46,303 bases of DNA from a virus (taxonomy: Duplodnaviria > Caudoviricetes). The position numbers and the translations under genes are program-made. The notes beneath the pieces are model-generated. The model did not search any database. It had not been told where the DNA came from and worked only from the letters and a program-made list of their open reading frames with translations. The stretch lies in IMG/VR virus record IMGVR_UViG_3300046710_000414, positions 1 through 46,303 of that record; one strand, given 5' to 3'. Shown piece after piece: positions 10,068 through 31,378 of the stretch; the stretch's first letter is position 1; every line of letters starts with the position of its first letter.

Positions 10068-10096
10068 TTGACATACCCAAAGTTTTAATGTATACT
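10068..10096 (+). promoter_or_regulatory. Sigma70/SigA-type promoter
   Basis: TTGACA-17 nt-TATACT directly upstream of the 911-aa ORF. Confidence 0.85.
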
Positions 10097-10121
10097 TTAG
10101 ATATGTATACTATATAATTAA

Positions 10122-12857
10122 ATGGGGATGTGTATGGAATATAAATTTTCAGAATTAAATGAAGATACTCTTCGCAAACTTTATTTGGATTTTGGCTTTA
10201 GAGCAAAAGAGATAGGCACAATTATTGGTGTTACTGAAAGCGCAATTTTATTTAGCCTTAAAAAATTTAAAATACCCACAAATCCCCGTGGATATCTTAA
10301 AAAAGATATCCAGGTAGTGTATACTGGAATTAATAAAGCAGTGAAGAAAACTCTTACGGATGATCTGCTAAAAGAATTTACTGATAGGGGTATGTCCGAT
10401 GTAGACATAGGACGTATGTTTAATTTAACTGGTGAGGGTGTAGCTTATCATAGAAATAAGCTAGGCATAAAGGCTAAGGGTTTGGATTACAAAAGAAAAG
10501 AAATAAATCATAGTAGAGGTTTAAAAGATGTTAAGGAGCTTACACGAGAAGAATTAATAAATGAATTAATAGCATATAGAGGAATAAAAGGTGTAGCACG
10601 TAAGTATAGCACAACTTTTAGTACTTTAAAGGAACTCATAAATTCATACAATTTAAATAGAGATAGTGTTTTGTCTGATCATATTAATCTAACTGAGCTT
10701 CATAAAAAAGTTATAATAGGGGGGCTTTTAGGGGATGGCGGGATTTATGACGGGGGTATAAGAGGCTTTTACTATAAAGAATCACATAGTATTATGCAGA
10801 TAGATTATGTAAAATGGAAAGTATCTCTTTTAAAGGATATCATTAATAATGACTTATATTATGAAGAAAAAATATCAGAGTTAAACACTATGAGTTACCT
10901 TGTTGGATTTAGAACTAGCAAATATGCTGAGTTATCTTTTTATAGGGACCAATTCTATAAATATATAGAGGGTCATTTTATAAAAACTATACCCAGCAAA
11001 TTTATTGAAGATATAGATCCTTTAACATTCTCTATATGGTTCTTTGATGATGGGGGATTGGCAAATAATACCCTCCCCTATGTTTGTTCTGGCTCTTCTG
11101 TAGAAGATATTCAAAAAGCATCTAGTATACTTAATGATAAATTTGGGCTTGATTCTTATGTAGGGGAAAAAAGAATAAGTAACTGTAGCTTACTTTATTT
11201 TTCTAATATCCCCAAATTTTTTGATCTTATTAAGGGGTATATTCTCCCATGCTTTTATTATAAGATACCTTTAAGCTGCAGATTTGATATACCTGAGTTA
11301 GATAGTAGTGTCCATAAATTACCCAGTATAATATCTGAGTATACCCCCCAAAAGTGGCGGGATCTTCCTATTATAGAAAAGAGAGAATGGATTGATAATG
11401 TCATAAAGTACTATACTTTTATTGGTTTTCCATACTATGAAATAAGAGGGAAAGATAAAATAAATGCTATCCTGAATAACCTGAATAATCAGGATATTCA
11501 AAAAGAGGTTTTGTCATCAGGTATGTTCAATAAAGTATCTTATATAGGTACTGATTTAGCAAGTGCACATTTCCCCCATATGTGGGCTGCTAAAATCAGG
11601 GGAAAAAGAAGTGTATATAATAACTATCTAGATAGTAAAAGATTTAGAACTGTTATTGAAAAAGTATTTAAATATCGAAATACTCTTTCTGAAGCAGCTA
11701 TACGGTCTGAATTAAGACATGGCTCTACTGTTCAGAATTTTAAGCCACTGATAGCCAAGACGCTATATGATATCTATTGCCCTCCTAATGGCTCTGTCTA
11801 TGATTATTCCGCAGGATATGGGGGCAGATTATTAGGAGCTTGTGCTTCAAAAAATGTTAGCACATATACATGTACTGATCCTTGCCAGCAGACATTTTTT
11901 GGATTAAGAAAGTTACAGCGGTTGTTGAATGGATATTATCTTGATAAGGAGATAAAGATATTTAATTCCTGTGCAGAAGACCCCTCTTTTTATTTGGGTT
12001 TAAATAAAGTAGATATGTGTTTTAGTTCCCCCCCATATTTTGACACTGAAAAATATTCGGAAGAAGATACGCAGAGTTATAAAAGATATCCAAAGATAGA
12101 TCAGTGGCATAAATCTTTTTTAATCCCTATGATTAATAACTGCTGTAATATTCTAAAAGATGGTGGCTATTTTTTAATGAATATAGCTGATTCTGGTGGG
12201 TATAAGTTACAGAAGATGGCTTATGAGGGCTTATCATCACAATTACTATATGATAGAACAATATTAATAAGAATGCCAAGTTATTTTTCGGAAGATAAGT
12301 ATGAGCCTATTTTTGTTTTTAAAAAAGTGCCAGTAATAAAAAATCCATCTTATGAAGAAATTACAAGTACTTGGGAGTATGAAAGTACAAATAGTAATGA
12401 CATTGAGTTAGTAAGAATCACAAATAAGGATAAAAATTTATTTTCTGATATAGATAAAAAGAATGCCATTGAATATATGCAAATTTTATATAAAGAAAAT
12501 ATTAAACCAAGCCGAAATAGTATTAAAAACGTAATTTTTAATAAATTCCCCTATTCCGTTAGTAGAATAGAAAAAGCTTTTGGTAGCTGGAATTCTTTTT
12601 TATTGGAATGTGGTATTCAGCCCATTTATGAAGCTAAGGATTCTGTAGAGCATGTTAAAGATTATTTTAATGCTTGTATAGAGCACAGTAGTGTATTAAG
12701 TTTTTATGAATATGAAAAAGCTACAGGGCATCCAAGTACAAGATTAAAAAGACTTTTTAACAAAGATAAAAAGTACCATCATCTCAAAGAAAACTTACAG
12801 CAGACAGCTTTGAATCAGAATGCCTGGGAAGAGTTCTTTAAAAATTTTATAGACTAG
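10122..12857 (+). CDS. HTH + LAGLIDADG endonuclease + amino-DNA methyltransferase fusion
   Basis: N-terminal HTH-like repeats; IIGGLLGDG and IWFFDDG LAGLIDADG motifs; SAM motif DYSAGYGG; catalytic SPPYF; C-terminal FGSWN homing-endonuclease-associated repeat. Start could be 10134. Confidence 0.85.
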   Translation: MGMCMEYKFSELNEDTLRKLYLDFGFRAKEIGTIIGVTESAILFSLKKFKIPTNPRGYLKKDIQVVYTGINKAVKKTLTDDLLKEFTDRGMSDVDIGRMFNLTGEGVAYHRNKLGIKAKGLDYKRKEINHSRGLKDVKELTREELINELIAYRGIKGVARKYSTTFSTLKELINSYNLNRDSVLSDHINLTELHKKVIIGGLLGDGGIYDGGIRGFYYKESHSIMQIDYVKWKVSLLKDIINNDLYYEEKISELNTMSYLVGFRTSKYAELSFYRDQFYKYIEGHFIKTIPSKFIEDIDPLTFSIWFFDDGGLANNTLPYVCSGSSVEDIQKASSILNDKFGLDSYVGEKRISNCSLLYFSNIPKFFDLIKGYILPCFYYKIPLSCRFDIPELDSSVHKLPSIISEYTPQKWRDLPIIEKREWIDNVIKYYTFIGFPYYEIRGKDKINAILNNLNNQDIQKEVLSSGMFNKVSYIGTDLASAHFPHMWAAKIRGKRSVYNNYLDSKRFRTVIEKVFKYRNTLSEAAIRSELRHGSTVQNFKPLIAKTLYDIYCPPNGSVYDYSAGYGGRLLGACASKNVSTYTCTDPCQQTFFGLRKLQRLLNGYYLDKEIKIFNSCAEDPSFYLGLNKVDMCFSSPPYFDTEKYSEEDTQSYKRYPKIDQWHKSFLIPMINNCCNILKDGGYFLMNIADSGGYKLQKMAYEGLSSQLLYDRTILIRMPSYFSEDKYEPIFVFKKVPVIKNPSYEEITSTWEYESTNSNDIELVRITNKDKNLFSDIDKKNAIEYMQILYKENIKPSRNSIKNVIFNKFPYSVSRIEKAFGSWNSFLLECGIQPIYEAKDSVEHVKDYFNACIEHSSVLSFYEYEKATGHPSTRLKRLFNKDKKYHHLKENLQQTALNQNAWEEFFKNFID

Positions 12858-12908
12858 GATATAAAATGAAGGCCATTAATTCTATAGCATTAGATTTTGA
12901 AGGGTAAC

Positions 12909-12941
12909 GGTATTGGGTATATAATCTAATACCCTTTTTTT
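12909..12941 (+). terminator. Rho-independent terminator
   Basis: GGTATTGGGT-atata-ATCTAATACC (two G-U pairs) then CTTTTTTT. Confidence 0.7.
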
Positions 12942-12947
12942 ATCGAA

Positions 12948-12964
12948 TAATAATACATTAATAT
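12948..12964 (+). promoter_or_regulatory. Putative late promoter TAATAATACATTAATAT
   Basis: Motif variant immediately after the terminator. Confidence 0.65.
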
Positions 12965-12977
12965 TTTTTTTAGTGTA

Positions 12978-13694
12978 ATGATGACTATAAAAAGTACACC
13001 AATAGAACTTATTTTTCGTCTACGGAGAATTGCGGCAGATTTAGAAGAGCATAACCGTAACTCCACGATATCTTCGGGTATCAAAGAAATATACGGTATT
13101 GATGTAGACCATAAAGCTGATTCGGAATGTCTTCAAGCTTTGTATAGTAGCCTTCAAAGAATATCCCCTGAAATTGTAAAGATGTGTGGTATAAAATCAC
13201 TGTCATTTGAGGATTTAGGCCCCTCTAAAGAATTTTACCCGAATCATGGGAAATATGTTAATAATACTCTTATTATGAATGATCAACTACTTAAAGATCC
13301 CTCAATAATTATTGATCCGGATAATGAGTCTATAATAAATAAATTTGATCATACTCTTTATCATGAGCTTGGTCATGGTTGGGATGAAGCCCAGGGAGAA
13401 GATGGTGATCTATCCCTTAAAGATGATTGGTTGAAATTGTCAGGATGGTCAAAGTATCCAAAACCAGGATTTAAAAGGATACATATTCATGAGAAGGGTA
13501 CTCCTGAGGTAGTAGGAGATTATTATTATTCGCCATTTGCTCGATTTACAAGATTTTATGCAAAGAGATCTCCTTGGGAAGATTGGGCGGATAGTTTCTC
13601 ATATTATCTTGGAGGAGCTAAAAGCTACTTACCAAAAGAAAAAATAACATATTTTGATAAGCTTTTAAAGAAATATCTTAAGGGTGGTAAATAA
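12978..13694 (+). CDS. Zincin-like metallopeptidase
   Basis: HELGH (HExxH) and downstream YAKRSPWEDWADSF third-ligand motif. Confidence 0.75.
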   Translation: MMTIKSTPIELIFRLRRIAADLEEHNRNSTISSGIKEIYGIDVDHKADSECLQALYSSLQRISPEIVKMCGIKSLSFEDLGPSKEFYPNHGKYVNNTLIMNDQLLKDPSIIIDPDNESIINKFDHTLYHELGHGWDEAQGEDGDLSLKDDWLKLSGWSKYPKPGFKRIHIHEKGTPEVVGDYYYSPFARFTRFYAKRSPWEDWADSFSYYLGGAKSYLPKEKITYFDKLLKKYLKGGK

Positions 13695-14272
13695 TGAGTA
13701 TATTAGGTAAATTGAATAAGATTGCTAATGTTCTTAGTGAACGTGGTTTTGATAAAGAGGCTTCAGAGTTAAGGGATATCAAGGAAGCCACTATTACAGG
13801 GTATCCTTTTTTTGGAGAAACCAAACATACCCCACGGATGTTAAATCAACCTGGTAAAGCTTTTCATGAACCTACTGATCCTAATATTAAGCCTTACGAA
13901 AAGGGAGATTTTGTTATTGAGCTGAATTCTTCTACTGGTAAAGAAGAGTTGATGATGTGGGATGGTAAGAGATTAGTTCCTAAAAAAGAAATTGAGAATA
14001 TGGTTGAAACAGGGGCTATGAGAGAAGAGCGATTGATTGGTCCATATAATAAAGCTACTCCTGATGTAAAAGCACAGATGAGACCTTTATTAGAATATGC
14101 AAAGAGTAAAGAAGCCTCAGGTAGTCTTCCTCCAAAGAATAGAATTGAATCATATTATCCTGCTGAGCGATTAGCAAATATTAAGATTTGCTTGGAAAAG
14201 CGGGGATACACATTATTGGCTAAAAAGTTAAAAATTGCTATGGATGAATATACAAAAACAGTTTCAGAATAA
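13694..14272 (+). CDS. Hypothetical protein (putative internal head protein)
   Basis: TAATG coupling; LNKIANVLSERGFDKEASEL and LANIKICLEKRGY helices at both ends. Confidence 0.75.
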   Translation: MSILGKLNKIANVLSERGFDKEASELRDIKEATITGYPFFGETKHTPRMLNQPGKAFHEPTDPNIKPYEKGDFVIELNSSTGKEELMMWDGKRLVPKKEIENMVETGAMREERLIGPYNKATPDVKAQMRPLLEYAKSKEASGSLPPKNRIESYYPAERLANIKICLEKRGYTLLAKKLKIAMDEYTKTVSE

Positions 14273-14295
14273 TATATAAAATATTGGAGAGCATT

Positions 14296-14547
14296 ATGAA
14301 TGGTTTATTCAATGATCCTGATGGCAAAGTAAGCATGATGCGTCTGATGTCTTTTGTAGTTTGTGTGGTTATTATGGCTATTTTTGCTGCACATAATATT
14401 GTTTCTATGGCAAAAGGCGGAGGCTTTGTATCATTAGGCCCTTCAGAGGCATTATTGATCGCGGGCGTCTTAGGTGCAAAAGCTGCCCAAGCTTTTTCGG
14501 AAAATAAGAGGATTCCTGACCGTGATTCACCTAAAACAGAGGAATAA
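14296..14547 (+). CDS. Small two-TM membrane protein, possible holin
   Basis: GKVSMMRLMSF followed by two hydrophobic stretches and a charged tail; GGAG RBS favours ATG 14296. Confidence 0.55.
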   Translation: MNGLFNDPDGKVSMMRLMSFVVCVVIMAIFAAHNIVSMAKGGGFVSLGPSEALLIAGVLGAKAAQAFSENKRIPDRDSPKTEE

Positions 14548-14549
14548 AG

Positions 14550-14747
14550 ATGCCTGATCCTAACAAGTATGATGGAGACAAGCAAAAATTTATGGGTGAT
14601 TGTATGCATCAATGTGTCCGCATTGAAAAAAAGGATAGAGATCAAAGTATCGCTCAATGTTTAAATATGTGGAGAGATAAGGATAAAAAGAAAAAGTGCG
14701 CTTCAGATATTATTAGAGAACTGTCCCGAGAATTACTTAGAATATGA
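14550..14747 (+). CDS. Small hypothetical protein
   Basis: MPDP...KFMGDCM...QSIAQCLNMW; coupled to the next gene by ATGA. Confidence 0.7.
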   Translation: MPDPNKYDGDKQKFMGDCMHQCVRIEKKDRDQSIAQCLNMWRDKDKKKKCASDIIRELSRELLRI

Positions 14748-16024
14748 TTCGTTTAATTACTTCCTATTTATCAGATAAAGATATTATTAAGGCTCCAAAG
14801 TCTGGTATTCCTGTTATTTTTCTTGGTGGGGATTGTCAGGATAACAGTTGGCGTAAAGAAATCGAGAAAGAATTTGGGGAAGACTTATACCTATTAGATC
14901 CTTTTGATAGGAATTATGATCCAGCAAAGAATACTTATAAAGAAGTAGCTGGGATGATAAATTCAGATTATGTTATTTTCTATAATGGTGGTAAGCAATC
15001 GGATAGGGAAAAGAAATTTCTTGAACTTATAGGTAGACGTAATGATTTAGTCAAGGAATTTGACAATATAGATAGTGTAAAAAAGTTTTTAAATAAGCTA
15101 AAGGAAAAAAACTTGAAAAGTATTAGCTCAAAAATAAGAAAGTGCGCGGATACACTTTCAAAAATGGCTATGCCTTTCGTATCTCCAGATAAAGGTATTT
15201 CAAAGGCTATAGATTTTAAATTTGAACGCTTGGATGCAGATTCCATCCCAAAAGTAGTGAATGATATTTTCTCTGGCAAGACTATAAGAATTCCAAAGTA
15301 TGATGAAGCTACTACAGGATTTAATTCATTTAATATTAAAAGTCTCTCTGATCCTGATAATTCTTTGGCATTTCTTAAGAATTATAAAGATATTGAGCAC
15401 GTAAAAAAAACATTTTCTAATCGCAATCCAGAATCAATTATCTTCACTTATGATGTACCTTCTAGCACTTATGTTGATGTACGTACAAAAGTTGCAAAAA
15501 CTGGAGTGAAGTACGATTATTCATGCACTAAAATCAATTTACCTGATGTCTTGTCTAAATCTATTATAAAATGGGGTATGGATAATGTACCGGGTAATAA
15601 ATTATATGTAGAAGGGGATAATTCAAAAGGTCGAGAGGATGATATCCATGTAACAGTGCTTTATGGGATTACAGATGATTCTCCTGTAAGGATTGCAAAG
15701 ATTATTGGAGAGATTAAACCTTTTGAAGTGCGTCTTGGTTTGATTAATGCATTTAAGGATAAAGAAGAATATGATGTTCTTAAGATTGAAGTAGAAGCTG
15801 GAGATCTTGAGAAATTGTATTATAATCTCGTAAAAAAGATAAAAAATGAAAGCACATTCCCGACATACAATCCCCATGTTACTGTCGCATATGTTAAGAA
15901 AGATTCCATGGACAAATTTATAGGGGATGAGACTTTTAAAGGTAAGACGTTTAAAGTAAATAATATAGTATTTTCTAATGGTAAAGATAGGGATAATGAA
16001 AAAAAGTTACCATTGAATATATAA
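14744..16024 (+). CDS. Nucleoside deoxyribosyltransferase-like domain fused to 2H phosphoesterase (Acb1/T4 57B-like)
   Basis: N-terminal IFLGG...SWR...LDP...SDYVIFY...S-x-x-E; C-terminal REDDIHVTVLYG (His 15647) and YNPHVTVAY (His 15875), two HxT motifs. Confidence 0.75.
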   Translation: MIRLITSYLSDKDIIKAPKSGIPVIFLGGDCQDNSWRKEIEKEFGEDLYLLDPFDRNYDPAKNTYKEVAGMINSDYVIFYNGGKQSDREKKFLELIGRRNDLVKEFDNIDSVKKFLNKLKEKNLKSISSKIRKCADTLSKMAMPFVSPDKGISKAIDFKFERLDADSIPKVVNDIFSGKTIRIPKYDEATTGFNSFNIKSLSDPDNSLAFLKNYKDIEHVKKTFSNRNPESIIFTYDVPSSTYVDVRTKVAKTGVKYDYSCTKINLPDVLSKSIIKWGMDNVPGNKLYVEGDNSKGREDDIHVTVLYGITDDSPVRIAKIIGEIKPFEVRLGLINAFKDKEEYDVLKIEVEAGDLEKLYYNLVKKIKNESTFPTYNPHVTVAYVKKDSMDKFIGDETFKGKTFKVNNIVFSNGKDRDNEKKLPLNI

Positions 16025-19799: not shown

Positions 19800-19976
19800 A
19801 TGGAAAGAGTGAATTTTCATCTTACCGATGGTGAGATACATGGTCTTCGAGTAATATCTGAACTTACGGGGGTACCTCGTGCTGAGATTATAAGACGTGC
19901 AATTGATGACTATATTAATAGAAAGAAATTTGAAGGTTTTACAGGACTTGAAAATATACGTGAGGTGTACGCATGA
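19800..19976 (+). CDS. Ribbon-helix-helix (CopG-like) DNA-binding protein, 58 aa, absent from the ORF track
   Basis: MERVNFHLTDGEIHGLRVISELTGVPRAEIIRRAIDDYINRKK...; AGGAG RBS; ATGA overlap with the next gene. Confidence 0.85.
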   Translation: MERVNFHLTDGEIHGLRVISELTGVPRAEIIRRAIDDYINRKKFEGFTGLENIREVYA

Positions 19977-22900
19977 GTATACGCACCCCTTTATTGGGTT
20001 TGAATATTATTGTAGGTCCTGATGATAAGGATGTTTTAGATAGATGTCTTAAAAGTTGTCAAGGTGAACTATTTGACGAGATAGTAATAACTCTTGCTAT
20101 GGAAAAAGAGGACCCAGAGATAAAGGCCTTAGCTGAGAGTTATGGGGCTAAGACATTCTTTTTTAAATGGGTACAGGATTTCAGTGCCGCACGAAATTTC
20201 TCATTTAGTAATAATACATCAGAATATATTATGTGGTGTCTTACGCCCGATTCAAGAGTCCATACAGAACGAGGACTTATATCCATATCTGAAGTATGCC
20301 TGGGAGATAAGGTATTGACTCATACTGGTAGATATATGCCAGTTACTAAGTTATATAAGCAGCCTTTTAGTGGGGATATCTACAGGATATCAAGTAAGTA
20401 TTCAGGGAAATCTATAGGAGTTACTCCAAATCATGAGTTTTTAGGGTGTCAAAGTTATTCATGTAAAACAGGTATAAAATTTTGTAAGCCAGATTGTAAG
20501 AAGCAGTATTCAAAAAGATACCTTAAGAAGTATGGTAAACTAAGCAGACAATGTAAGCAAGGCTATACAGAGTATGCTCCACAATTTATACCTATAGATA
20601 AGCTACATTTAGGTGATATACTAAGCTTTCCTAAATTAAAGCAGACTATATATAATTCTATGTTTGTAAACTTATTAGATTATCCTCAAGGTAAAAAAGA
20701 ATTACCAGATAAAATAGAAATTACTCCTGAAGTTATGAGACTGTTTGGTTATTTTGTAGCTGAAGGTACTGTGGGAGCCAATTATTTATCTTTTTGTTTT
20801 CATAAAAAAGAAACATCATACCAGGATGATGTTATATACCTGATGAATAGAATTTTCAATATATCAGGAACTAAAGTTTTTTCAGAGAGTAATGGGTGTA
20901 ATGTTACGTTTAATTCTATTACCTTATCAAAATTTTTTAAGAGTTATTTTAGTGGTTTACAGTCTGTTAGGAAGCTACCTAATGAATTATTAGGTTTGAG
21001 TGATAAGCACCTATCAGAGTTTATAAAAGGATATTATAGAGGTGATGGGGGTGAAAATCCTGATAGTTTTGCTATTACTACGAGTAGCCCTTATTTAGTT
21101 GAACAGATACGTTTAATTTTATCAAGATTTGGTATAATGGGGGAGTGTATCCCTTATAAAACAAAAAATGCCTGGAAAGTACGGGTTGGTGGTAAAAGTA
21201 TATCAGCTTTTCAAGATATAATATCTGAGACACACAGTGAAGAATTAAGATGCTGTTTTAATAAAAATTTTTATTCAGATAATGACTTTTTATACCATCA
21301 GATAGATGAATACACAAAGGAATTCTATGAAGGAGAGGTTTATAATCTTGAAGTTAGTGAAGATCATAGCTATGTAACAGAGTATATGGTTACTCATAAT
21401 TGTGATTCTGATGATATCATAAAACCTTCAGAGTATAAGAAACTCCTGGATCTTAAACCTAAGATTAAGAACTGGGATATTACTATACTCAATTACGTAT
21501 ATAGCCATGATGAGAAGGATGCCCCGGTATTAATTCTCCCGAGAGAAAGAATAGTAAAAAACTGTGAGCATATAAAATGGCATGATCCCATACATGAATA
21601 TATGAATCTTGATGTTCCACCAAATAAGATACATCGGGAAAATATCAATATTGATCACTATAGAATTAGAGTCCATAATCCTGCTCGCAATATAGAGGCT
21701 CTTAAAAAGATCTATGAATCCAATAACTGCTCAGAGAGAATAAAGTTCTATTATGGTAAAGAACTGGCTGATTTTGGAATGTGGGAAAAAGCAATATTGG
21801 TACTTGATCCCTATATAAAAAAGGGAGCAGATTTTGCGGATAATCTTACTACAGCATGCATAAAATTATCAAGATATTATTTTGAAAAATCTGATTATTC
21901 TTCATCAAAAAGTTATGCACTAAAAGGTATTAGATTCAATAGCATATATGCTGAGAATTACGTGGTTCTTGGAAATATTTTTGAACAGGAAAATGATACA
22001 GACACAGCAGTATCATATTATAAAGAAGCTCTTAATAAAAAACTTGAAGGAGGAATGTCTCAGATAATTGACTACTATGGATTTATTCCAGCAGCTAAGC
22101 TGGCTCTCCTTTATTACAATAGAAAAGAATATGACAGTGTAGTAAAATATTGTACACTTGCTCTTATGCACAAACCAGGTAATGAACAGATGAGTGAACT
22201 CCTTAAGATTACGAATATTGAAATGGCTCGTTTGTCAAAAGGGATGGTGCTCCAGGAAGAAGACATCTTCAAATTAAAAGAATTTTTGCAGAAAAATGAT
22301 CTTAATATGAGTGTTCTTCGGAATAATATCGATTTCTGTGATATAAGATTGAATAAAGTTCGAGATATTAAAGTAGTATGGTTTATTCCCGCACTTGATT
22401 TAACGAATCCTTCTATTAGATTAAGAAGAATTAATATCTGCCAACAACTGGTAGATATGGGGATTGATAGCACGATCATTACTAATTACTACGGTAATAG
22501 TATCTATGAAATAAGAAACAGGGTAGGAGATGCAACTGTAGCTATCTTTACTCAGTTTGGTAAAGAAGATCTTGAAATAATGAAGCATCTTAAATCTTCA
22601 GATATAAAATGTGTCTTTGACCATTGTGAGGCTTTATTCAATTTCCCATTTGAGCGTGAATGTATGGGAGAAGCAGATCTTATTACTTGCTGTTCCACTA
22701 AGCTTAAAGAACTTACTAATGAGCATGGCTTTATGAAGACTGTAGTTCTTAAGGATGCTGTGGAGAAAACATCCAATAAGATAGTCTATGAAGATCGATA
22801 CATAAAGCCTAAAGCAATTTATGTAGGTATGGGCGGAAATTCCTGGCTTATTAGTGATTATTTAAAGGATACAATTGAAGAAGCAGGGTATGAAATAGTT

Positions 22901-25237
22901 TTATGTACAGAATGGGATAATGCCACTCACCGATGGACAGAAGATGGTTGGGTTGATGTAATGAATTCCTGTGATGTAGTGCTCTGCCCCCAACGTGTTG
23001 ATGTTCAACCAGCAAAGAGTTCTGTGAAAGCTACTGTAGCTATGGCTCTGGGTCTCCCAGTTATCTGTTCTCCTCTTCAAGCATACAAAGAAATTATTAG
23101 AGATGGAGAAAATGGGTTTATTTGTGATACTAAAGAAGAATGGCGAAATGCCCTAATAAAATTAAAAGATAGCACCGTAAGAAAAAAGATAGGAGAAGCA
23201 GGAAAAGCCTCTATAGGAGACTATAGCTTGTCGGCTATATCCGGTCAATGGATAAGTACCTTGACGGAGCTCATTAATAATCAAATGAAATTTCCGGATC
23301 CTCCCGAAAAAATAGATGTAAGAAATAGATCCATAGTAGATATCATTATTGCTAACTATAATAACGTTGAATATCTTAAGATGTGCGTAAGCTCTATTCT
23401 CATGAATACCCTGTACCCGTTCCATATCATTATCTCAGATGGAGGCAGTAATAAAGAGACCTGGGATTACTTGCTGACATTAAAGGGTATTACTGTTATA
23501 GGTGACCCAAATAAACGTTTATCTTTTTCTGAGACTTGTAACGCAGGTATTAAAGCTTCTAATACAAAATATTTTGTAATTTTGAATTCAGATGTTATAG
23601 TGTCAAAGTGCTGGCTTACTAGCCTTGTTAATAAAATGGAGACTGTTGATAGATTAGCTTCTTGTGGTGTATTGTCAAATTGTGACAGAAGTTGGTTGCA
23701 TGACGCCCCGGGTAAACCATCTTATTCTATGCTCTTAGAAAAATCAAAGATTGATCTTCACCCAGCTATGAAGATTGATGAGATTAAACCTTATGTAGAA
23801 GAACTTTATAAATTCATGGAGGATTCTAATAAAAAACATAAGGATGTTTTTGTTAGTCAAGGGTGGGTGGCAGCATATGCTACTATCTTTGCTCGCTGTG
23901 CAATAAATGAAGTAGGCTTGTTTGATCCCCTCTTCCTTAACGGATGTGAAGATTTAGATCTTATGAATCGATTGACTAAGTATGGTTATAAAACTGGTCA
24001 GGCGATAGATTCTTTTGTATTCCATTTCGGGGGAATAAGCCGAGGATCTCATCAGATGGAGAATAAAGAAGCCTATGATAAAGAAGATGTTGAAAATCAT
24101 CTAAAATACAGAGCAAAATGGGCTAAGCCCAAAGTAGTAATTTGGACTGGTCCAGCTTGGGAACCCTGGAATAAACAAAAAGTAGATGAGGGTATGGCAG
24201 GATCAGAGACATGGGCATCATATCTTGCTCGGGAGTTTGTAAAAAAAGGTTTTGAGACCACTATCTATAATGACTTATTATCAGACAGTAAAGATGATAT
24301 CGTTCTTGATCCGGTCTTTGATGCTCAAGGTGTAAAGATTGGGGATGTTGTATATCGTGATCATACTAAGTTGCAAACGGATGTAGAATATGATGTCATT
24401 GATTATTTCATAGCATCCAGATCAACAGAACCTTTAAAATTAAATATTCATTCCTTAGTTAACGACATCATGATTCATGATATATGGCTTTCATCTGATA
24501 AAAATTATGATACTATGACTTGGAGAGTCAGAAAATACGCTTATTTGTCAGAGTGGCATAAGAATTTTTTAAGTAAGCATCATGGTATCTTAAGTGATCA
24601 GATGATTAAAACTTCAAATGGTATTAACTGGGATTTATATAATAATGTAGATAGGTTAAAAAAGAAGAAACAGATGGTTTGGAGTTCTAGTCCTGATAGA
24701 GGTCTATATGAATTTCTGCTTATGCTCCCTGAGATTAAAAGGCAAGTACCGGATTTTGAGTTAATAGTTGCTTATGGCTTTTATAATTGGGAAAAGGCTG
24801 CTGTTCACCGAAATAATATAAATGAAATAAATTACATCAAAGCTATAAAAGAATTAATGAATCAGAATGGTGTAAAATATGTGGGTAGAGTATCAAAAAT
24901 AGAACTGGCAGAGTTACAAAAAGAGAGTATGGTATGGCTATACAGCACGGCATTTACAGAAACTTTTGGAATAACCGCAGTAGAGAATGGGGCAGCATAT
25001 AATGCAATATTGTGTACAAATCTTGCAGGATTAATAGATACAGTTGGAGATGGTGGAATTTTAATTGATGGATTAAATTCTTCTAAAGAATATAGAGAAG
25101 AATTTATAGATCAATCTGTAAGATTATTAACTGATGAAGATTTTCGAAATGAATGGGCTGAAAAAGCTAATACTAAAATGAAAGAATACAACTGGGAAAT
25201 AATTGCTGATAATTGGATAAAGAGTTGGAATAAATAA
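19973..25237 (+). CDS. Multi-domain glycosyltransferase: GT2 (intein) - TPR - GT-B - GT2 - GT-B
   Basis: DFSAARNFS, W-C-DSDD, WHDPIHE; TPR-like helices; AMALGLPVICS; IIIANYN...SDGGS...LNSDV...EDLDL; SSSPDRGL...ETFGITAVE. Confidence 0.9.
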   Translation: MSIRTPLLGLNIIVGPDDKDVLDRCLKSCQGELFDEIVITLAMEKEDPEIKALAESYGAKTFFFKWVQDFSAARNFSFSNNTSEYIMWCLTPDSRVHTERGLISISEVCLGDKVLTHTGRYMPVTKLYKQPFSGDIYRISSKYSGKSIGVTPNHEFLGCQSYSCKTGIKFCKPDCKKQYSKRYLKKYGKLSRQCKQGYTEYAPQFIPIDKLHLGDILSFPKLKQTIYNSMFVNLLDYPQGKKELPDKIEITPEVMRLFGYFVAEGTVGANYLSFCFHKKETSYQDDVIYLMNRIFNISGTKVFSESNGCNVTFNSITLSKFFKSYFSGLQSVRKLPNELLGLSDKHLSEFIKGYYRGDGGENPDSFAITTSSPYLVEQIRLILSRFGIMGECIPYKTKNAWKVRVGGKSISAFQDIISETHSEELRCCFNKNFYSDNDFLYHQIDEYTKEFYEGEVYNLEVSEDHSYVTEYMVTHNCDSDDIIKPSEYKKLLDLKPKIKNWDITILNYVYSHDEKDAPVLILPRERIVKNCEHIKWHDPIHEYMNLDVPPNKIHRENINIDHYRIRVHNPARNIEALKKIYESNNCSERIKFYYGKELADFGMWEKAILVLDPYIKKGADFADNLTTACIKLSRYYFEKSDYSSSKSYALKGIRFNSIYAENYVVLGNIFEQENDTDTAVSYYKEALNKKLEGGMSQIIDYYGFIPAAKLALLYYNRKEYDSVVKYCTLALMHKPGNEQMSELLKITNIEMARLSKGMVLQEEDIFKLKEFLQKNDLNMSVLRNNIDFCDIRLNKVRDIKVVWFIPALDLTNPSIRLRRINICQQLVDMGIDSTIITNYYGNSIYEIRNRVGDATVAIFTQFGKEDLEIMKHLKSSDIKCVFDHCEALFNFPFERECMGEADLITCCSTKLKELTNEHGFMKTVVLKDAVEKTSNKIVYEDRYIKPKAIYVGMGGNSWLISDYLKDTIEEAGYEIVLCTEWDNATHRWTEDGWVDVMNSCDVVLCPQRVDVQPAKSSVKATVAMALGLPVICSPLQAYKEIIRDGENGFICDTKEEWRNALIKLKDSTVRKKIGEAGKASIGDYSLSAISGQWISTLTELINNQMKFPDPPEKIDVRNRSIVDIIIANYNNVEYLKMCVSSILMNTLYPFHIIISDGGSNKETWDYLLTLKGITVIGDPNKRLSFSETCNAGIKASNTKYFVILNSDVIVSKCWLTSLVNKMETVDRLASCGVLSNCDRSWLHDAPGKPSYSMLLEKSKIDLHPAMKIDEIKPYVEELYKFMEDSNKKHKDVFVSQGWVAAYATIFARCAINEVGLFDPLFLNGCEDLDLMNRLTKYGYKTGQAIDSFVFHFGGISRGSHQMENKEAYDKEDVENHLKYRAKWAKPKVVIWTGPAWEPWNKQKVDEGMAGSETWASYLAREFVKKGFETTIYNDLLSDSKDDIVLDPVFDAQGVKIGDVVYRDHTKLQTDVEYDVIDYFIASRSTEPLKLNIHSLVNDIMIHDIWLSSDKNYDTMTWRVRKYAYLSEWHKNFLSKHHGILSDQMIKTSNGINWDLYNNVDRLKKKKQMVWSSSPDRGLYEFLLMLPEIKRQVPDFELIVAYGFYNWEKAAVHRNNINEINYIKAIKELMNQNGVKYVGRVSKIELAELQKESMVWLYSTAFTETFGITAVENGAAYNAILCTNLAGLIDTVGDGGILIDGLNSSKEYREEFIDQSVRLLTDEDFRNEWAEKANTKMKEYNWEIIADNWIKSWNK
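20237..21400 (+). mobile_element. Intein (388 aa) with LAGLIDADG homing endonuclease
   Basis: CLTPDSRVHTERG; VTPNHEF; LFGYFVAEG and GYYRGDG; VYNLEVSEDHSYVTEYMVTHN|C. Confidence 0.95.
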
Positions 25238-26013: not shown

Positions 26014-26020
26014 GCATAGA

Positions 26021-26037: not shown

Positions 26038-26109
26038 GCTACCTTTATTGAAGATCCCTGATAAAGGGTTTTATATACAAACAAAAAGATTTAGTCTAAG
26101 GAGGCTTTT

Positions 26110-26535: not shown

Positions 26536-26565
26536 GACTTTTCTTAAGGCTTGACGATTTTTGAG

Positions 26566-26602
26566 GTTGCCGGGGTTACATCGACCTCGGCAATTTTTGT
26601 TT
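26566..26602 (+). terminator. Rho-independent terminator
   Basis: GTTGCCGGGGTT-acatc-GACCTCGGCAAT then TTTTGTTT. Confidence 0.7.
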
Positions 26603-26648
26603 AAATTTAAAATAACATCTATAATAAAAAATATTGAGAGGTGATCAA

Positions 26649-26936: not shown

Positions 26937-26944
26937 GAATTAAT

Positions 26945-27145
26945 ATGGATGTATACCAAGGTAAAATGACTACTATATCCCCTGCTATAGGACCATATGA
27001 AATCAATGTGTTTTATAACATTGACAAAGTGACCCCTGAAACCGGTGGTATAACAGGTATGGGGACACTTGAACCTGTAAAGTGGGATATGGGCTATACT
27101 GGGATAAACGACCTCAACTTTACTAACAGCAAGCATGGATTTTAA
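26945..27145 (+). CDS. Hypothetical protein
   Basis: ORF track; fills the operon gap; GITGM and GYTGI motifs. Confidence 0.65.
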   Translation: MDVYQGKMTTISPAIGPYEINVFYNIDKVTPETGGITGMGTLEPVKWDMGYTGINDLNFTNSKHGF

Positions 27146-27147
27146 TT

Positions 27148-27606
27148 ATGAGAGCATCTATTGTTGATTTTATGGCTAAAAAAGCTTCTGAAAATTTTAA
27201 GCTAAAAGAAGCTTCTTTTGTTGGGTTTGAAAATATTGATATAGAAGAAGAAAATGTTATAGAAAACAATGATGAGGAATTTTCCGCAAATATCGAAGTA
27301 TGGGCAGACATACATATATCTTATGAGGGTACTCCACCAGATAGCTATAGGGTACTTAATAGAATACTTCAGGATTGGGTTGATGATCATGATGGTGATC
27401 TTAAAAAAATGATCAATCCAAGACTATCATCATTTCTTAAAGAAAAATATGCTAATCTTGATATATCAGATTTGAATCAGGATTTTGATGATTATATCTG
27501 GGAAGACCAGGTTGATTATATGCCAGATATTGATGAGGATAAGAAGGTGATCAAGTTTACTGTTGAGTTAGTACTTGAGATCGAAGAAGAAGATAACGAA
27601 GAATAA
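27148..27606 (+). CDS. Acidic hypothetical protein
   Basis: ORF track; N-terminal KKAS/KEAS. Confidence 0.7.
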   Translation: MRASIVDFMAKKASENFKLKEASFVGFENIDIEEENVIENNDEEFSANIEVWADIHISYEGTPPDSYRVLNRILQDWVDDHDGDLKKMINPRLSSFLKEKYANLDISDLNQDFDDYIWEDQVDYMPDIDEDKKVIKFTVELVLEIEEEDNEE

Positions 27607-27670
27607 GATTGTGCCCTTCCGTTAAAGAACTGATCTTGCATATGTTGGTTCCTTTGTCTGGAGACTCCTT

Positions 27671-28075
27671 ATGGAAAGTTTTATACAAGGACATCGGATA
27701 GGACAAACAGATCTTATCCTTAATTTGTATGCGCGGTATTATAATGCCTACCCATACCAGACTTTTCCATATACTCCATATTGGATAAGATATGATATTG
27801 GGTTTGTTCATCCTCTTACAAATCAATTTATGCCAATTGGTATTCGTAACAGATTACCTGATATTTTAGATACGGGAAAGATAAGACCCAATTTTATTAT
27901 TGAGAATACATGGAAGATTGGGACTTATGAGATACGCTGGTATTATAGGGCTTTAGAGACCTCTGCTACACAATTGACCACTGTGGAATTTTCAGTAACT
28001 TCGGATGGTATTCATCAGCAAATGTCAGCTATGGAAAATCACTTCGATATTAATGCTTTCATGATATTGTACTAA
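27671..28075 (+). CDS. Hypothetical beta-rich (Ig-like) structural protein
   Basis: Loosely resembles the N-terminal domain of 28348 (PYWIRYDI vs PYYIRFSI; IGTYEIRW vs IGDWLVRW). Confidence 0.65.
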   Translation: MESFIQGHRIGQTDLILNLYARYYNAYPYQTFPYTPYWIRYDIGFVHPLTNQFMPIGIRNRLPDILDTGKIRPNFIIENTWKIGTYEIRWYYRALETSATQLTTVEFSVTSDGIHQQMSAMENHFDINAFMILY

Positions 28076-28086
28076 AATTTTAGAGC

Positions 28087-28103
28087 TAATAATCTAATAA
28101 TAT
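28087..28103 (+). promoter_or_regulatory. Putative late promoter TAATAATCTAATAATAT
   Basis: Motif variant in the intergenic gap. Confidence 0.6.
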
Positions 28104-28139
28104 AAAATCCTTACAGTAATATTATAGGGAGACAATTTT

Positions 28140-28346
28140 ATGCAACGTAAAAAAAATCCTGTCTTCAGGGACATGATTCGAATATCATCCTATATAAGAT
28201 CTGAAAATGGGGAGTTTCTCAAAGATGAGTCAGGTAAGATTACTCCATATATTCAGGAACAGTTCCGTAAGTTTTCATTCCTTAAAGAAGACTCTGTAAG
28301 GAAAGTTCTTGACAAGTATCTAAATAATATTGATCGAGGAATTTAA
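28140..28346 (+). CDS. Hypothetical protein
   Basis: ORF track; GGGAG RBS. Confidence 0.65.
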   Translation: MQRKKNPVFRDMIRISSYIRSENGEFLKDESGKITPYIQEQFRKFSFLKEDSVRKVLDKYLNNIDRGI

Positions 28347-28347
28347 T

Positions 28348-29244
28348 ATGTCAGTAGCATACCAAACGGGACAAACTCTTACCCAAGAAGATTTGAAAAT
28401 ATTAATCCGGGATAATATCGGAAATTTGGTAGATCCCTATTATATTAGATTTTCTATATTTGATTATACTACAGGTGTTGAAGTTCTTATTGGGCCTCCA
28501 GATCAAATCCCCGCTACCATGGGGGTAGGTCAATATTATGTGAATATTACCATACCCTTAGATGCAAATATCGGAGACTGGCTAGTACGATGGAATTTTA
28601 GGGAAACTTCAGGATCTCCTACAATTCAAGTTGTTCAGGAATTTAATGTTGTTGCTAAAGATGTAAAGACAGATATTACTAGTGTTGATTCTGAGCAGTT
28701 GCTCGTAAGAAGGTTAAGAATTATGCTAAGGGATAATAATCCCGATCGTAATTATAGATTTCGTCCCCCGGCGAGTGAAAAGTTCATACAAGCACAAGCT
28801 CAGGTATTTGGTTACGTGTGGGAAGATTATGAACTCTATGAGTATCTACTTATGGCTGTTGATTATTTCAATACGGCTCCTCCGGTGACAGGTATAACAT
28901 TATTTCAAACTCCGGATAGATGGAGAGCTGTGATTCTTCTTAAGTCAGCATCACTGGCTTGCGGGGCTCTTGCTTTGAATTGGATAGTTGATGAGTACGA
29001 TTATAGCATCAGTGGAGTGTCTCTTAATATAGAGAAATCTTCTAAATATCAATCCATGAAAGAGTCCTTTGAAGGTGAATACGATAAACTTCTTGATCAG
29101 GCTAAGAGATCTATAAAGATTGCTATAGGACTAAAACAACCTCGTTACGGTATAGGAATTAGCTCGGCCCTGGGGCCCTATTCGCGCCCGGGCGTCCAAT
29201 CACGCAGAAATTTTGTTTCCGGAGCAAGAGGCGGCTGGTCATAA
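28348..29244 (+). CDS. Putative head-tail adaptor (neck) protein with Ig-like N-terminus
   Basis: VRRLRIMLRD...WEDYEL...YSISGVSLNI helical connector pattern; GAGG RBS favours ATG 28348. Confidence 0.55.
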   Translation: MSVAYQTGQTLTQEDLKILIRDNIGNLVDPYYIRFSIFDYTTGVEVLIGPPDQIPATMGVGQYYVNITIPLDANIGDWLVRWNFRETSGSPTIQVVQEFNVVAKDVKTDITSVDSEQLLVRRLRIMLRDNNPDRNYRFRPPASEKFIQAQAQVFGYVWEDYELYEYLLMAVDYFNTAPPVTGITLFQTPDRWRAVILLKSASLACGALALNWIVDEYDYSISGVSLNIEKSSKYQSMKESFEGEYDKLLDQAKRSIKIAIGLKQPRYGIGISSALGPYSRPGVQSRRNFVSGARGGWS

Positions 29245-31317
29245 GGGATACGGCAGGGATACATAGTTTATTTTTTGTTTGAGATCTTTTAACTCTCTTT
29301 TATTTATCCCTAATAAGATAGAGTATTTACCTTTTTTTAATAGCCTAATTTTCTTAGCTTCTTTTAATAATTTTTTTCCCCAGGAATACCAATTTTGTTT
29401 AATATCCTCAGGTATTTTTGATAAATCCTTAAATTGATTTTCTTTAAACCACTCTGGTTTTAGTTCTATACTATTTTTTTTACACCACACTTTAAAAGTT
29501 GAAGTTCTTCTCAGGTATCTGGAAGAAAAGTGATGCGGTATCTCAGGGTGAACATATGAATAGGTATCACCGAAGGTGTTACCGAGATAATCAAAATTAC
29601 AGGCTCTATAGACTGTACCTCTCTCATTAGCTTCTGAATCAGAATACCCTACAAAAAGTCTCTTTGAGGTGTTATTGACCAGCCAGCGACAAGAGAACAT
29701 AATTAACCTGCTGCCTAAATTGCGGGGGGACCAAGACACTGTTGCTCCTCGTTGAATTAGTGCCTCATATATTGGGGTATCCGCTCCTAATAGACTGGAG
29801 TATGCAGGTGGTTCACTTAGTAATACAACTCCTGATAATACTCCCATATATCGGGCAGTAAAGCACCACTTAACATTAAAACCAACAGTACCTAACCACT
29901 CATACCGTTCAATGAATAATTTTATTTCCTCAGAAATTGTTTCGGGTTGTAGTATAAACTCTGAAGCTCTTATCCCTTCTATATTAAATGGAATATTTTT
30001 TATGTCTTCGGAATACCATTCCAATTTCTTTAAGAATTGATGGCACATTTGGTTCCTATTTATATTTTTTTCTATTTTTTCGATAATAAGTTCAAAAATT
30101 GTGCTATTCTTGATTGCGGAGGTAACATCACTGCTCCAGAATCTAATTAAGTTAGGTATCCCTATTACTTCTAATTTATCTCTTGCTATTGTTTTTTGTA
30201 TCTTATCAAATTGCCTGGTATTAATATTTGTCCTTTGAACTTTACCGTGCCAATAATCACCATCGTATTGTATCCATAAGTCATATGCAGGTAAGTAATA
30301 GTCAATGACATGCTTCAGTTTAGGGTGCTCTTTATGGCTCTCAGTTTTTGGGTCTAACAAAAGGAGATACTTTATAAAGTCTATTTCACCTTTAGATCTT
30401 CCTATAGAATTTCTTTGTATAGCTAATTCTCGTCCTTTTCTTCTAACTTCTTCTAAGCATAAAAAACTCTTTATACCATACTTCTCATAGCATGTTTGAT
30501 ATATCTTATTCTTTATATCTTCATTTTTTGCTGGGTTTGTTTCACCGTATCTCTCTAAGTTTTTTTCAATTATTTTCTTTTTAACCTCTGAACTCTTAAA
30601 AGGTGTCTCAACCCCATAACGAATTATATTCGTCTTCTTTATCTTTTCCTTAACTTCTTTATTTTCAGCAGGGAATGGTGCTCCATATTTTTCTAAACTC
30701 GTTTTTTTCTTTTTTTCAGCAATTTCAGGGACATTAAGTGGGACTCTTTGTCCATACTTTTCAATCATTCCTTTTTCGACCCTATCTGTTAATTGAAAAG
30801 TATTTGATATTCCATATCTTTCAAGATTTGTTTCTTTTGTTTTCTCTCGAATAGTTGGACTTTGGTTTATATATCTTACTCCATATCTTTTTAAAATAGT
30901 TTGTTCAGATTTTTCTTTTATTTTCTGTGCCTGAAATACATTATCTACACCATATCTCTCATTTACTACTAATTTTATCTTGTCACGAACTTCTTTGGAT
31001 TGTGAAGGATACTCTACTCCCCTTCTTTTCAAATTGGTTTGTCTACTTTTTTCTTTCATAGCCGGTAGAAGGGTAGAGTATTCTACACCATATTTTTCAA
31101 GCATAGCTTTTTTAGTACCCTCTATATTATCCTGTTTTATAATGGATGGGTCTCGTTTAAACTTTAGTCTACTAGCCCTATATCTTATAGATTTCCAAGT
31201 TCTGTTTAACTTAGTTAATATTATATCTTTAGGTGTTTTTAAATATAGCTCCTTGAGTAGTGTATCTTCTTGTTCAGACCATAAAAGCAAAGTAATACCT
31301 TTTTGTGCTGCTGTCAT
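29239..31317 (-). CDS. Myb-like HTH + (K/R)YG repeats + Vsr/PD-(D/E)xK-like endonuclease + Mom-like (GNAT) DNA modification domain
   Basis: WSEQEDTLL...LNRT; ten ~23-aa repeats; IDYYLP...IQYDGDYWHG; PRNLGSRLI...YSDSEANERGTVYRACNFDYLG (Mom-family pattern); GGAGG RBS. Confidence 0.8.
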   Translation of the reverse strand: MTAAQKGITLLLWSEQEDTLLKELYLKTPKDIILTKLNRTWKSIRYRASRLKFKRDPSIIKQDNIEGTKKAMLEKYGVEYSTLLPAMKEKSRQTNLKRRGVEYPSQSKEVRDKIKLVVNERYGVDNVFQAQKIKEKSEQTILKRYGVRYINQSPTIREKTKETNLERYGISNTFQLTDRVEKGMIEKYGQRVPLNVPEIAEKKKKTSLEKYGAPFPAENKEVKEKIKKTNIIRYGVETPFKSSEVKKKIIEKNLERYGETNPAKNEDIKNKIYQTCYEKYGIKSFLCLEEVRRKGRELAIQRNSIGRSKGEIDFIKYLLLLDPKTESHKEHPKLKHVIDYYLPAYDLWIQYDGDYWHGKVQRTNINTRQFDKIQKTIARDKLEVIGIPNLIRFWSSDVTSAIKNSTIFELIIEKIEKNINRNQMCHQFLKKLEWYSEDIKNIPFNIEGIRASEFILQPETISEEIKLFIERYEWLGTVGFNVKWCFTARYMGVLSGVVLLSEPPAYSSLLGADTPIYEALIQRGATVSWSPRNLGSRLIMFSCRWLVNNTSKRLFVGYSDSEANERGTVYRACNFDYLGNTFGDTYSYVHPEIPHHFSSRYLRRTSTFKVWCKKNSIELKPEWFKENQFKDLSKIPEDIKQNWYSWGKKLLKEAKKIRLLKKGKYSILLGINKRELKDLKQKINYVSLPYPL
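30450..31110 (-). repeat. About ten coding repeats of ~23 aa (K-x-K-x-T-N-L-E-R-Y-G-V-E-x-P type)
   Basis: KYGVEY, RRGVEY, RYGVDN, RYGVRY, RYGISN, KYGQRV, KYGAPF, RYGVET, RYGETN, KYGIKS; boundaries approximate. Confidence 0.85.
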
Positions 31318-31349
31318 ATATCCTCCATAGCATGGTTGTCCTATTATTA

Positions 31350-31378
31350 ATAATACTTCTTATTATCGGGTATTTCAA
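31350..31378 (-). promoter_or_regulatory. Sigma70/SigA-type promoter for the nuclease-Mom fusion
   Basis: Minus strand TTGAAA-tacccgataataagaag (17 nt)-TATTAT. Confidence 0.7.

What the first reader, a model, noticed from the sequence alone, without database searches (positions are those of the whole stretch)
10068..31378. Both nuclease-modifier fusions share a distinct host-type promoter (TTGA[C/A]ATACCC): a possible cut-and-modify gene class
Seen: TTGACATACCC...TATACT (10068, +) and TTGAAATACCC...TATTAT (31378, -), both with 17-nt spacers that begin TACCC. Neighbouring units use the TAATAATC motif instead, including the one headed by the plain endonuclease at 39969. Two unrelated nuclease folds are each fused N-terminally to an unrelated DNA-modifying fold, each next to the 3' end of a conserved head gene. 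Inference: a convergent, early-expressed architecture in which homing nucleases carry anti-restriction/self-protection enzymes. I know of no description of it.
Basis: partly seen in the sequence, partly recalled or inferred. Interest (0 to 1): 0.85.

Follow-up and report, generated by a model that had tools for sequence, protein, structure and literature searches.

The report
Nuclease-modifier cassettes beside jumbo-phage head genes
This large phage carries two mobile genes, each joining a DNA-cutting domain to a DNA-modifying domain and each behind its own host-type promoter; they are likely homing elements that carry anti-restriction cargo, but the special shared promoter word proposed for them does not recur in relatives.

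Summary
Both sigma70-like sites are real (10068+, 31378-), and both head intact fusions: HTH-LAGLIDADG-methyltransferase behind the major capsid gene, and repeats-EDxHD/Vsr-like nuclease-Mom behind a head-tail connector gene. The TACCC word is not a class signature: 0 of 43 promoters of related cassettes have it, including the one at the same site in a close relative and both fusion types in another single genome. Sigma70-like promoters are real for the class (22 of 56 fusions, 0 of 170 structural genes), but plain LAGLIDADG genes have them too (9 of 34). Structural units use TAATAATCTNTTAATA. The fusions are conserved families with invariant catalytic residues, fixed insertion sites, empty alleles in close relatives, and modules that swap (LAGLIDADG-MTase, LAGLIDADG-Mom, EDxHD-Mom, HNH-Mom). 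Best reading: free-standing homing endonucleases carrying anti-restriction cargo. Nuclease-Mom fusions in jumbo phages are published (Iyer 2021). I found no paper on the LAGLIDADG-MTase fusion, but this scan reported it before on three other genomes. No activity or transcription start is shown.

The parts
9016..9909 (+). Major capsid protein gene; its 3' end borders cassette 1 and is the inferred target region
   Evidence: PHROG 2522 E 2.2e-54; 74% identical to LR745208.1, 41% to Bacillus phage G gp27
9931..9964 (+). Terminator-like hairpin closing the capsid operon
   Evidence: 14-pair stem plus T run
10068..10096 (+). Sigma70-like promoter of cassette 1: TTGACA-17-TATACT; spacer begins TACCC
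   Evidence: 11 of 12 matches
10122..12857 (+). Fusion 1, 911 aa (likely start at ATG 10134): two HTH-like units, I-SceI-like monomeric LAGLIDADG (about 190-385), helical domain (about 420-540), Rossmann amino-methyltransferase (DYSAGYG at 561, SPPY at 636), C-terminal tail
   Evidence: Pfam LAGLIDADG_2 1e-20, N6_N4_Mtase 4.7e-7; I-SceI match; conservation
12909..12934 (+). Terminator-like hairpin closing cassette 1
12948..12963 (+). Late-type motif TAATAATACATTAATA for the next gene (12978)
   Evidence: 2 mismatches
28330..29244 (+). Conserved head-tail connector-like gene; its stop codon overlaps the end of fusion 2
   Evidence: 30% identical to a Tunturi_5 gene annotated head-tail connector, E 8e-34; 102 viral relatives
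29239..31317 (-). Fusion 2, 692 aa: N-terminal helical unit, DUF7487 repeats, EDxHD/Vsr-like nuclease (E311, D339, H357, D380), Mom-type GNAT domain (about 425-692)
   Evidence: Pfam DUF7487 2e-43, Mom 1.7e-8; NCBIfam Vsr only 0.0027, below cut-off; fold match to Mu Mom 8bv8 E 1.2e-8; invariant columns
31350..31378 (-). Sigma70-like promoter of cassette 2: TTGAAA-17-TATTAT; spacer begins TACCC
   Evidence: 10 of 12 matches
31388..31403 (+). Late-type motif back to back with the cassette 2 promoter, serving gene 31459; also present in the occupied allele L081
39928..39943 (+). Late-type motif TAATAATCCCTTAATA before the plain endonuclease gene 39969-41126 (comparison case)

Best explanation
The two genes are site-faithful mobile cassettes with intact nuclease and DNA-modifier domains and ordinary sigma70-like promoters; they are likely free-standing homing endonucleases that carry the modifier as anti-restriction cargo, and the shared TACCC is probably coincidence. 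Shown: domains, conserved catalytic residues, fixed sites, empty alleles, module exchange, promoter-type contrast with structural genes. Inferred: in a mixed infection the nuclease would cut the 3' part of the neighbouring gene (capsid or connector) of a cassette-free sister phage, and repair would copy the cassette across; host RNA polymerase would make the protein early; the methyltransferase or Mom domain, using its own specificity, would mark many sites of phage DNA against host restriction, which pays for keeping the cassette. The nuclease would not need the mark to spare its own genome.
For: Site fidelity: of 27 non-redundant EDxHD-Mom genes found through the Mom domain alone, 22 lie within 1.5 kb of the connector gene and the other 5 are cut by contig ends. 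Of 80 capsid loci (not dereplicated), 26 have LAGLIDADG-MTase within 3.5 kb downstream, 24 a LAGLIDADG without detected modifier (8 cut short), 2 LAGLIDADG-Mom, 4 other, 10 none detected, 14 too short. Patchy presence: L002 (capsid 98% identical) and L087 (connector 87%) lack the cassettes; L043 (capsid 79%) has a 50% identical fusion while L013 (94%) has a 29-31% one. Catalysis looks kept: D310 and K381 invariant, D205, K288 in at least 90% of 23 sequences, D310 region, K288 and K381 aligned to I-SceI; the first Asp, DG of motif 2 and YK invariant in 10 further divergent rows; E311, D339, H357, D380 invariant in 30 of 30; S536, D560, Y570 invariant and aligned with Mu Mom S114, D139, Y149. 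Independence of modules: on a 67-row LAGLIDADG tree the MTase label needs 10 changes (at least 7 forced by well-supported branches) and the 4 Mom fusions fall in 4 places; complete plain nucleases (L045, L053, L054) sit next to fused ones; Mom occurs as a separate gene beside a LAGLIDADG in L094 and L115; the same MTase module stands alone in 84 non-redundant ORFs and in cultured phages. Promoters.
Against: No cleavage, modification or transcription start was measured. No target site was identified; the rise in synonymous divergence over the last 60 capsid codons is slight (0.59-0.61 against 0.46-0.57) and was not seen clearly for the connector gene. Some 'plain' rows on the tree are cut by contig ends or carry undetected C-terminal domains, which inflates the number of changes. 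EDxHD-Mom is a stable pairing (72 of the 120 listed hits carry both DUF7487 and Mom at 35-72% identity before the first without Mom), which fits functional coupling. Seven T4 free-standing endonucleases with their own promoters use middle or late, not early, ones (PMC2988022 passages), so host-type promoters are atypical for pure homing. The MTase fold matches tRNA methyltransferases (TrmN, Trm11) about as well as DNA ones. Only 22 of 56 fusions pass the strict promoter test. One of 119 viral TACCC-type promoters does head a two-gene unit ending in this MTase family (L412), against 0 of 120 for a control word.
Confidence: 0.55

Rival explanations
1. Single-chain 'cut the rival, mark yourself' system: the modifier protects the phage's own DNA from the fused nuclease, which attacks host or co-infecting phage DNA, as in a Type IIG-like restriction-modification enzyme.
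For: Proposed for jumbo-phage REase-Mom fusions in PMC7824862 section 3.4.7. Both halves are conserved together in many homologues. The nuclease always comes first and the modifier last in the fusions seen. Host-type promoters fit early action.
Against: Strict insertion beside one gene per nuclease type is what homing predicts and a restriction system does not need. Close plain nucleases exist without a detected modifier. One nuclease fold pairs with two different chemistries. LAGLIDADG enzymes read long, rare sites (established knowledge, recalled).
Confidence: 0.25
2. The nuclease part is mainly a targeting device that delivers the modifier to one long site, for example to shield the homing site or to regulate the neighbouring structural gene.
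For: Fusion in one chain, several extra DNA-binding units (HTH, DUF7487 repeats), fixed position beside a structural gene.
Against: Nuclease catalytic residues are kept. The MTase module works as a stand-alone gene family with its own N-terminal helical domain (residues 412-735 matched as a unit).
Confidence: 0.08
3. TACCC is a real element of this one genome, such as a site for a phage regulator or for the methyltransferase itself next to the -35 box, co-regulating both cassettes.
For: Exactly 2 matches in the window, both in the right place; 5 of 5 identity in the first five spacer bases was seen in only 1 of 903 pairs of other cassette promoters; L412; ATACCC also lies in the terminator stem after fusion 1. 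Only 46 kb of this genome is held, so a genome-wide class cannot be excluded.
Against: 0 of 43 related promoters; not in the same-site cassette of L081; not in G007, which has both fusion types; 1 non-promoter match in five related records and 0 in four more; none of 119 viral matches heads a fusion; TACCC is not enriched in the window (110 against 96).
Confidence: 0.1
4. The fusions are isolated, non-functional accidents.
For: A few homologues are split or truncated (L024, L042, L170, L194).
Against: Full-length families with invariant active sites at fixed sites in dozens of genomes.
Confidence: 0.02

Closest known systems
Jumbo-phage Mom domains fused to REase-fold endoDNases (Iyer et al. 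2021, PMC7824862; section 3.4.7 read whole, supplement unreadable)
   Same: Nuclease of the PD-(D/E)XK/Vsr-related group fused to a Mom GNAT domain in a jumbo phage; protect-self, cut-other role proposed there.
   Different: That section does not mention homing, a fixed insertion site, promoters, or LAGLIDADG partners (0 hits for 'homing'; 0 for LAGLIDADG). Whether its examples are of this exact subfamily could not be checked.
Free-standing homing endonucleases of T4-like phages (Seg, Mob; SegD between genes 23 and 24) (PMC2988022, passages read)
   Same: Optional nuclease genes between conserved genes; one sits beside the capsid gene in opposite orientation; cassettes re-supply promoters for the downstream gene.
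   Different: T4 enzymes are GIY-YIG or HNH, no modifier domain is mentioned in the passages read, and their own promoters are middle or late, never early.
I-SceI family monomeric LAGLIDADG endonucleases (Pfam PF03161)
   Same: Two motifs, catalytic Asp and Lys positions, fold (TM 0.72-0.75 over the target).
   Different: Free-standing in a phage, with N-terminal HTH units and a C-terminal methyltransferase.
EDxHD homing endonucleases (I-Bth0305I; PMC3239194, passages read)
   Same: N-terminal repeated DNA-binding region plus Vsr-like domain with E, D, H, D.
   Different: DUF7487 repeats in place of NUMOD2; fused Mom; no sequence or fold hit to 3R3P or Vsr structures was listed.
Phage Mu Mom (10.1101/861617, passages read; PDB 8bv8)
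   Same: GNAT fold; S114, D139, Y149 equivalents invariant.
   Different: 15% identity; H48 and Y49 equivalents not mapped by any search, so the chemistry may differ; fused to a nuclease.
Type IIG single-chain restriction-modification enzymes (e.g. BpuSI)
   Same: Nuclease then amino-methyltransferase in one chain; 3s1s appears among the fold hits (E 5e-7).
   Different: Nuclease is LAGLIDADG; no C-terminal shared recognition domain; hit is low-identity and not specific.
ShiLan insertion in actinophage methylases (PMC11855218, abstract and outline read)
   Same: A homing endonuclease physically tied to a phage DNA methylase gene.
   Different: There an out-of-frame HNH is inserted inside its target methylase gene; here the methyltransferase is in frame and travels with the nuclease.

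Membership tests
Distinct promoter class TTGA[C/A]ATACCC | Motif recurs before homologous fusions | tested here: not met
   0 of 43 promoters; L081, L043 differ
Distinct promoter class TTGA[C/A]ATACCC | Motif predicts nuclease-modifier fusions in other viral DNA | tested here: not met
   0 fusions in 119 loci, one separate MTase and two HNH loci; control word 0 MTase and 3 nuclease loci in 120; flanks complete for 80 loci of each set only
Sigma70-type promoter | -35 and -10 boxes, 16-18 nt apart, upstream of the gene, above chance across homologues | tested here: met
   LAG-MT 13 of 29 (0.6 expected), EDxHD-Mom 8 of 24 (0.8), structural genes 0 of 170 (the window's two included; rows are related)
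Sigma70-type promoter | Transcription start at early times | not testable with these tools
   No usable RNA reads
LAGLIDADG (I-SceI-like) endonuclease | Two motifs with catalytic Asp, two Lys, fold | tested here: met
Free-standing homing endonuclease | Optional presence at a fixed site beside a conserved gene, with empty alleles | tested here: met
Free-standing homing endonuclease | Cleaves the cassette-free allele and is copied by gene conversion | not testable with these tools
   Needs biochemistry and mixed infection
Free-standing homing endonuclease | Recoding or conversion tract in the neighbouring gene | tested here: inconclusive
EDxHD family | E, D, H, D catalytic motif in a Vsr-like domain | tested here: met
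   E311, D339, H357, D380 invariant in 30 rows; assignment by motif order
EDxHD family | Significant profile or structure match to Vsr or I-Bth0305I | tested here: inconclusive
   NCBIfam vsr E 0.0027, far below cut-off; no such hit listed
Mom family | GNAT fold closest to Mu Mom; S114, D139, Y149 equivalents | tested here: met
Mom family | H48 and Y49 equivalents; adenine modification activity | not tested
   Region not covered by the alignment; no assay
N4/N6 DNA amino-methyltransferase | SAM motif and SPPY motif in a Rossmann fold | tested here: met
   SAM motif in 30 of 30 fusions, SPPY/F in 28 of 30, the 2 misses cut by contig ends
N4/N6 DNA amino-methyltransferase | DNA (not RNA) substrate and base modified | tested here: inconclusive
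   Fold hits to DNA and tRNA enzymes at like E-values; a solo homologue is annotated N4-cytosine methylase
Type IIG-like restriction-modification | Nuclease and modifier share one site; modification blocks cutting | not testable with these tools
   Module swapping argues against

The most novel reading that the evidence does not exclude
In this jumbo-phage group, homing endonucleases of several folds and DNA modifiers of several chemistries form a mix-and-match class of single-chain, early-expressed 'drive plus epigenetic mark' genes at two structural-gene hot spots, in which the mark both defeats host restriction and makes the carrier immune to its own or a rival cassette's nuclease: a modification-gated homing arms race among sister phages.
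Probability: 0.25. Interest if true: 0.8.

Novelty: new variant of a known kind. Interest (0 to 1): 0.5.

Why it matters
Homing endonucleases are usually treated as selfish genes that carry nothing. If these carry working anti-restriction enzymes, homing becomes a route by which DNA modification spreads through phage populations, and the fixed sites with empty alleles make that directly testable. The families also offer many natural I-SceI-like nucleases and a divergent Mom subfamily. The headline claim of the finding, a special promoter word, does not hold, and half of the architecture is already in print.

Tried and rejected
TACCC as class motif: rejected. In 4.24 Mb of fetched loci 18 relaxed -35+TACCC matches had no -10 box by my rule; the nearest case, L126, is antisense inside a coding gene. 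Single-protein locus searches failed or gave only repeat matches; alignment queries worked. RNA: one 213-nt contig identical to 12029-12234 in an RNA library; the tool does not show it to be a transcript, so it is not used. Target-site recoding test inconclusive. The Mom tree is the quick version only and poorly resolved, with one very long row; it shows LAGLIDADG-Mom and solo Mom inside the EDxHD-Mom group but not the order of events. A regex suggesting lost LAGLIDADG motifs in 6 fusions was a false alarm on alignment of those 6. The connector gene has no Pfam, PHROG, NCBIfam or named Atlas family. k-mer depletion (CTAG 56 against 194) does not identify a modifier target. A VIA fold comparison of fusion 2 was not obtained. 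Literature: searches found no paper on a LAGLIDADG-methyltransferase fusion in phages; PMC4738411 (passages; LAGLIDADG 0 times) and PMC7468147 (passages) do not describe it. The supplement of PMC7824862 and a 2013 paper from the same group on DNA base modification systems (recalled, not obtained) could list such fusions; most subscription papers are not searched.
Full report
Setting. The window is a 46 kb piece of the structural region of a jumbo phage: portal, protease, capsid, neck and sheath genes. Its capsid protein is 74% identical to that of a 485 kb uncultured phage (LR745208.1) and 41% to Bacillus phage G; related contigs reach 470 kb. The genome held is the window itself.

Observation. 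They are the only exact TTGAMATACCC matches in the window (0.23 expected). Site 1 lies between a terminator-like hairpin behind the capsid gene (9931-9964) and ORF 10122-12857, which is closed by another hairpin at 12909-12934: a self-contained unit. Site 2 heads ORF 29239-31317 on the minus strand, whose end overlaps the stop of gene 28330-29244. Structural units carry a different motif, TAATAATCTNTTAATA: 12 sites with up to 2 mismatches against 0-7 in shuffles, 11 of them on the coding strand 30-239 nt before a gene, and the same motif recurs in the closest relatives L001, L002, L081 and L087. It is probably the phage's late promoter (inference).

The proteins. Fusion 1 is HTH units, an I-SceI-like LAGLIDADG domain and an amino-methyltransferase. 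Nine proteins of similar length match, 8 of them at 45-79% identity. In 23 aligned sequences D310 and K381 are invariant and D205 and K288 nearly so; the SAM motif (D561, G565, G567) and SPP are invariant. Whether the substrate is DNA, and which base, is not settled: fold hits include Type I and IIG DNA enzymes and tRNA enzymes at like E-values, and a solo homologue in a Vibrio phage is annotated as an N4-cytosine methylase. Fusion 2 is DUF7487 repeats, a Vsr-like nuclease and a Mom domain. E311, D339, H357 and D380 are invariant in 30 sequences, the order of the EDxHD motif (PMC3239194 passages), though no structure hit to that family was listed. The model's best match is Mu Mom (E 1.2e-8), and S536, D560 and Y570 align with the residues that the Mu Mom preprint shows to matter (S114, D139, Y149).

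Mobility and modularity. Among 80 capsid loci, 26 carry LAGLIDADG-MTase just downstream, 24 a LAGLIDADG without detected modifier, 2 LAGLIDADG-Mom, 10 nothing detected, and 14 are too short (not dereplicated). The closest relative by capsid (L002, 98%) has unrelated genes there. At the connector gene, L087 (87%) is an empty allele in which the next gene follows directly; L081 (83%) has a 46% identical fusion at the same point, and both occupied alleles carry a late motif for the downstream gene. Searching by the Mom domain alone, 22 of 27 non-redundant EDxHD-Mom genes lie at the connector gene and the other 5 are cut by contig ends. The connector site also hosts LAGLIDADG-MTase (L083, L091, L203) and HNH-Mom (L143). 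On a LAGLIDADG tree the MTase label needs 10 changes and the four Mom fusions are in four places; truncated rows inflate this, but complete plain nucleases sit beside fused ones. The MTase and Mom modules also occur alone in many phages.

The promoter test. In the 200 nt upstream plus 60 nt, a strict sigma70 match was found for 13 of 29 LAGLIDADG-MTase, 8 of 24 EDxHD-Mom and 1 of 3 LAGLIDADG-Mom genes (expected 0.6, 0.8, 0.1), and for 0 of 67 capsid and 0 of 103 connector genes (the window's two are included and the rows are related; the structural genes are mostly inside operons). Plain LAGLIDADG genes scored 9 of 34, not significantly fewer (p=0.26). So the host-type promoter belongs to the mobile cassettes, not to fusions as such. 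TACCC followed the -35 box in none of the 43 promoters outside the window; one had 4 of 5. The cassette at the same site in L081 keeps both boxes and flanks but reads AAGAA there. Record G007 carries both fusion types, like the window; their spacers begin AATTT and TTCTT, and the pattern is absent from all 258 kb. None of 119 viral matches to the full TACCC promoter heads a fusion; one (L412) heads an unassigned 198-aa gene followed by a solo MTase of this family, against none in 120 control loci. That single case, the low pairwise rate (1 of 903) and the missing rest of the genome keep a genome-specific role open at about 10%.

Mechanism. Most likely these are free-standing homing endonucleases with modifier cargo. 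Fixed sites, empty alleles and intact catalytic residues are shown; cleavage of the neighbouring gene in a sister phage, early expression and anti-restriction benefit are inferred. The main rival is the single-chain protect-self, cut-other model. Free exchange of modifiers and the existence of plain relatives count against it; the stability of the EDxHD-Mom pairing and the early-type promoters count for it.

Prior knowledge. [quoted passage not shown] PMC2988022 (passages) gives the T4 precedent, including SegD beside the capsid gene, and notes no early promoters for free-standing endonucleases. Searches found no paper on the LAGLIDADG-MTase fusion; an unread supplement may list it.

Verdict. 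Promoters and fusions are real; the special promoter word is not a class feature; the gene class is a new variant of known kinds, half published. Interest 0.5.

Noticed in passing
window 2420, 6998, 12948, 19734, 26021, 28087, 31388, 37152, 39928, 42602, 43167: Probable late promoter of this phage group, TAATAATCTNTTAATA, unlike the T4 late motif (recalled); conserved in close relatives.
   Followed up: partly
L045, L053, L055, L057, L033, L023, L166, L205 and others: In 22 of 45 cassette promoters an ATG lies about 5-9 nt after the -10 box, suggesting leaderless messages; in the window that ATG (10103) opens only a 4-codon frame.
   Followed up: partly
L001 10641-12401: LAGLIDADG fused to a ParB-like domain at the capsid site, a third cargo type.
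   Followed up: no
L005 11110-12225; L035, L054, L060: The capsid site also holds a TnpB-like gene and RRXRR-DUF7487 proteins.
   Followed up: no
L412 1874-2470 and 885-1877: TTGACATACCC promoter heading an unassigned 198-aa gene overlapping a solo methyltransferase of the same family; possibly a two-gene nuclease-methylase unit.
   Followed up: partly
window 14744-16024: C-terminal 2H phosphoesterase; Pfam Acb1 (anti-CBASS) E 1.5e-5, below its cut-off.
   Followed up: no
window 38835-39845: Volactin-like actin homologue in a phage structural region, E 4e-62.
   Followed up: no
window 4124-6985, 19973-25237, 2-310: LAGLIDADG-containing inteins in the protease and in a 1754-aa multi-glycosyltransferase; an intein C-terminal end is visible by eye at the start of the portal frame.
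   Followed up: no
whole window: CTAG strongly depleted (56 against 194 expected); CATG and GGCC also low.
   Followed up: no
L201, L207, L210, L259, L261, L262, L264, L265: Mom domains with 200-300 aa N-terminal extensions of no Pfam family.
   Followed up: no
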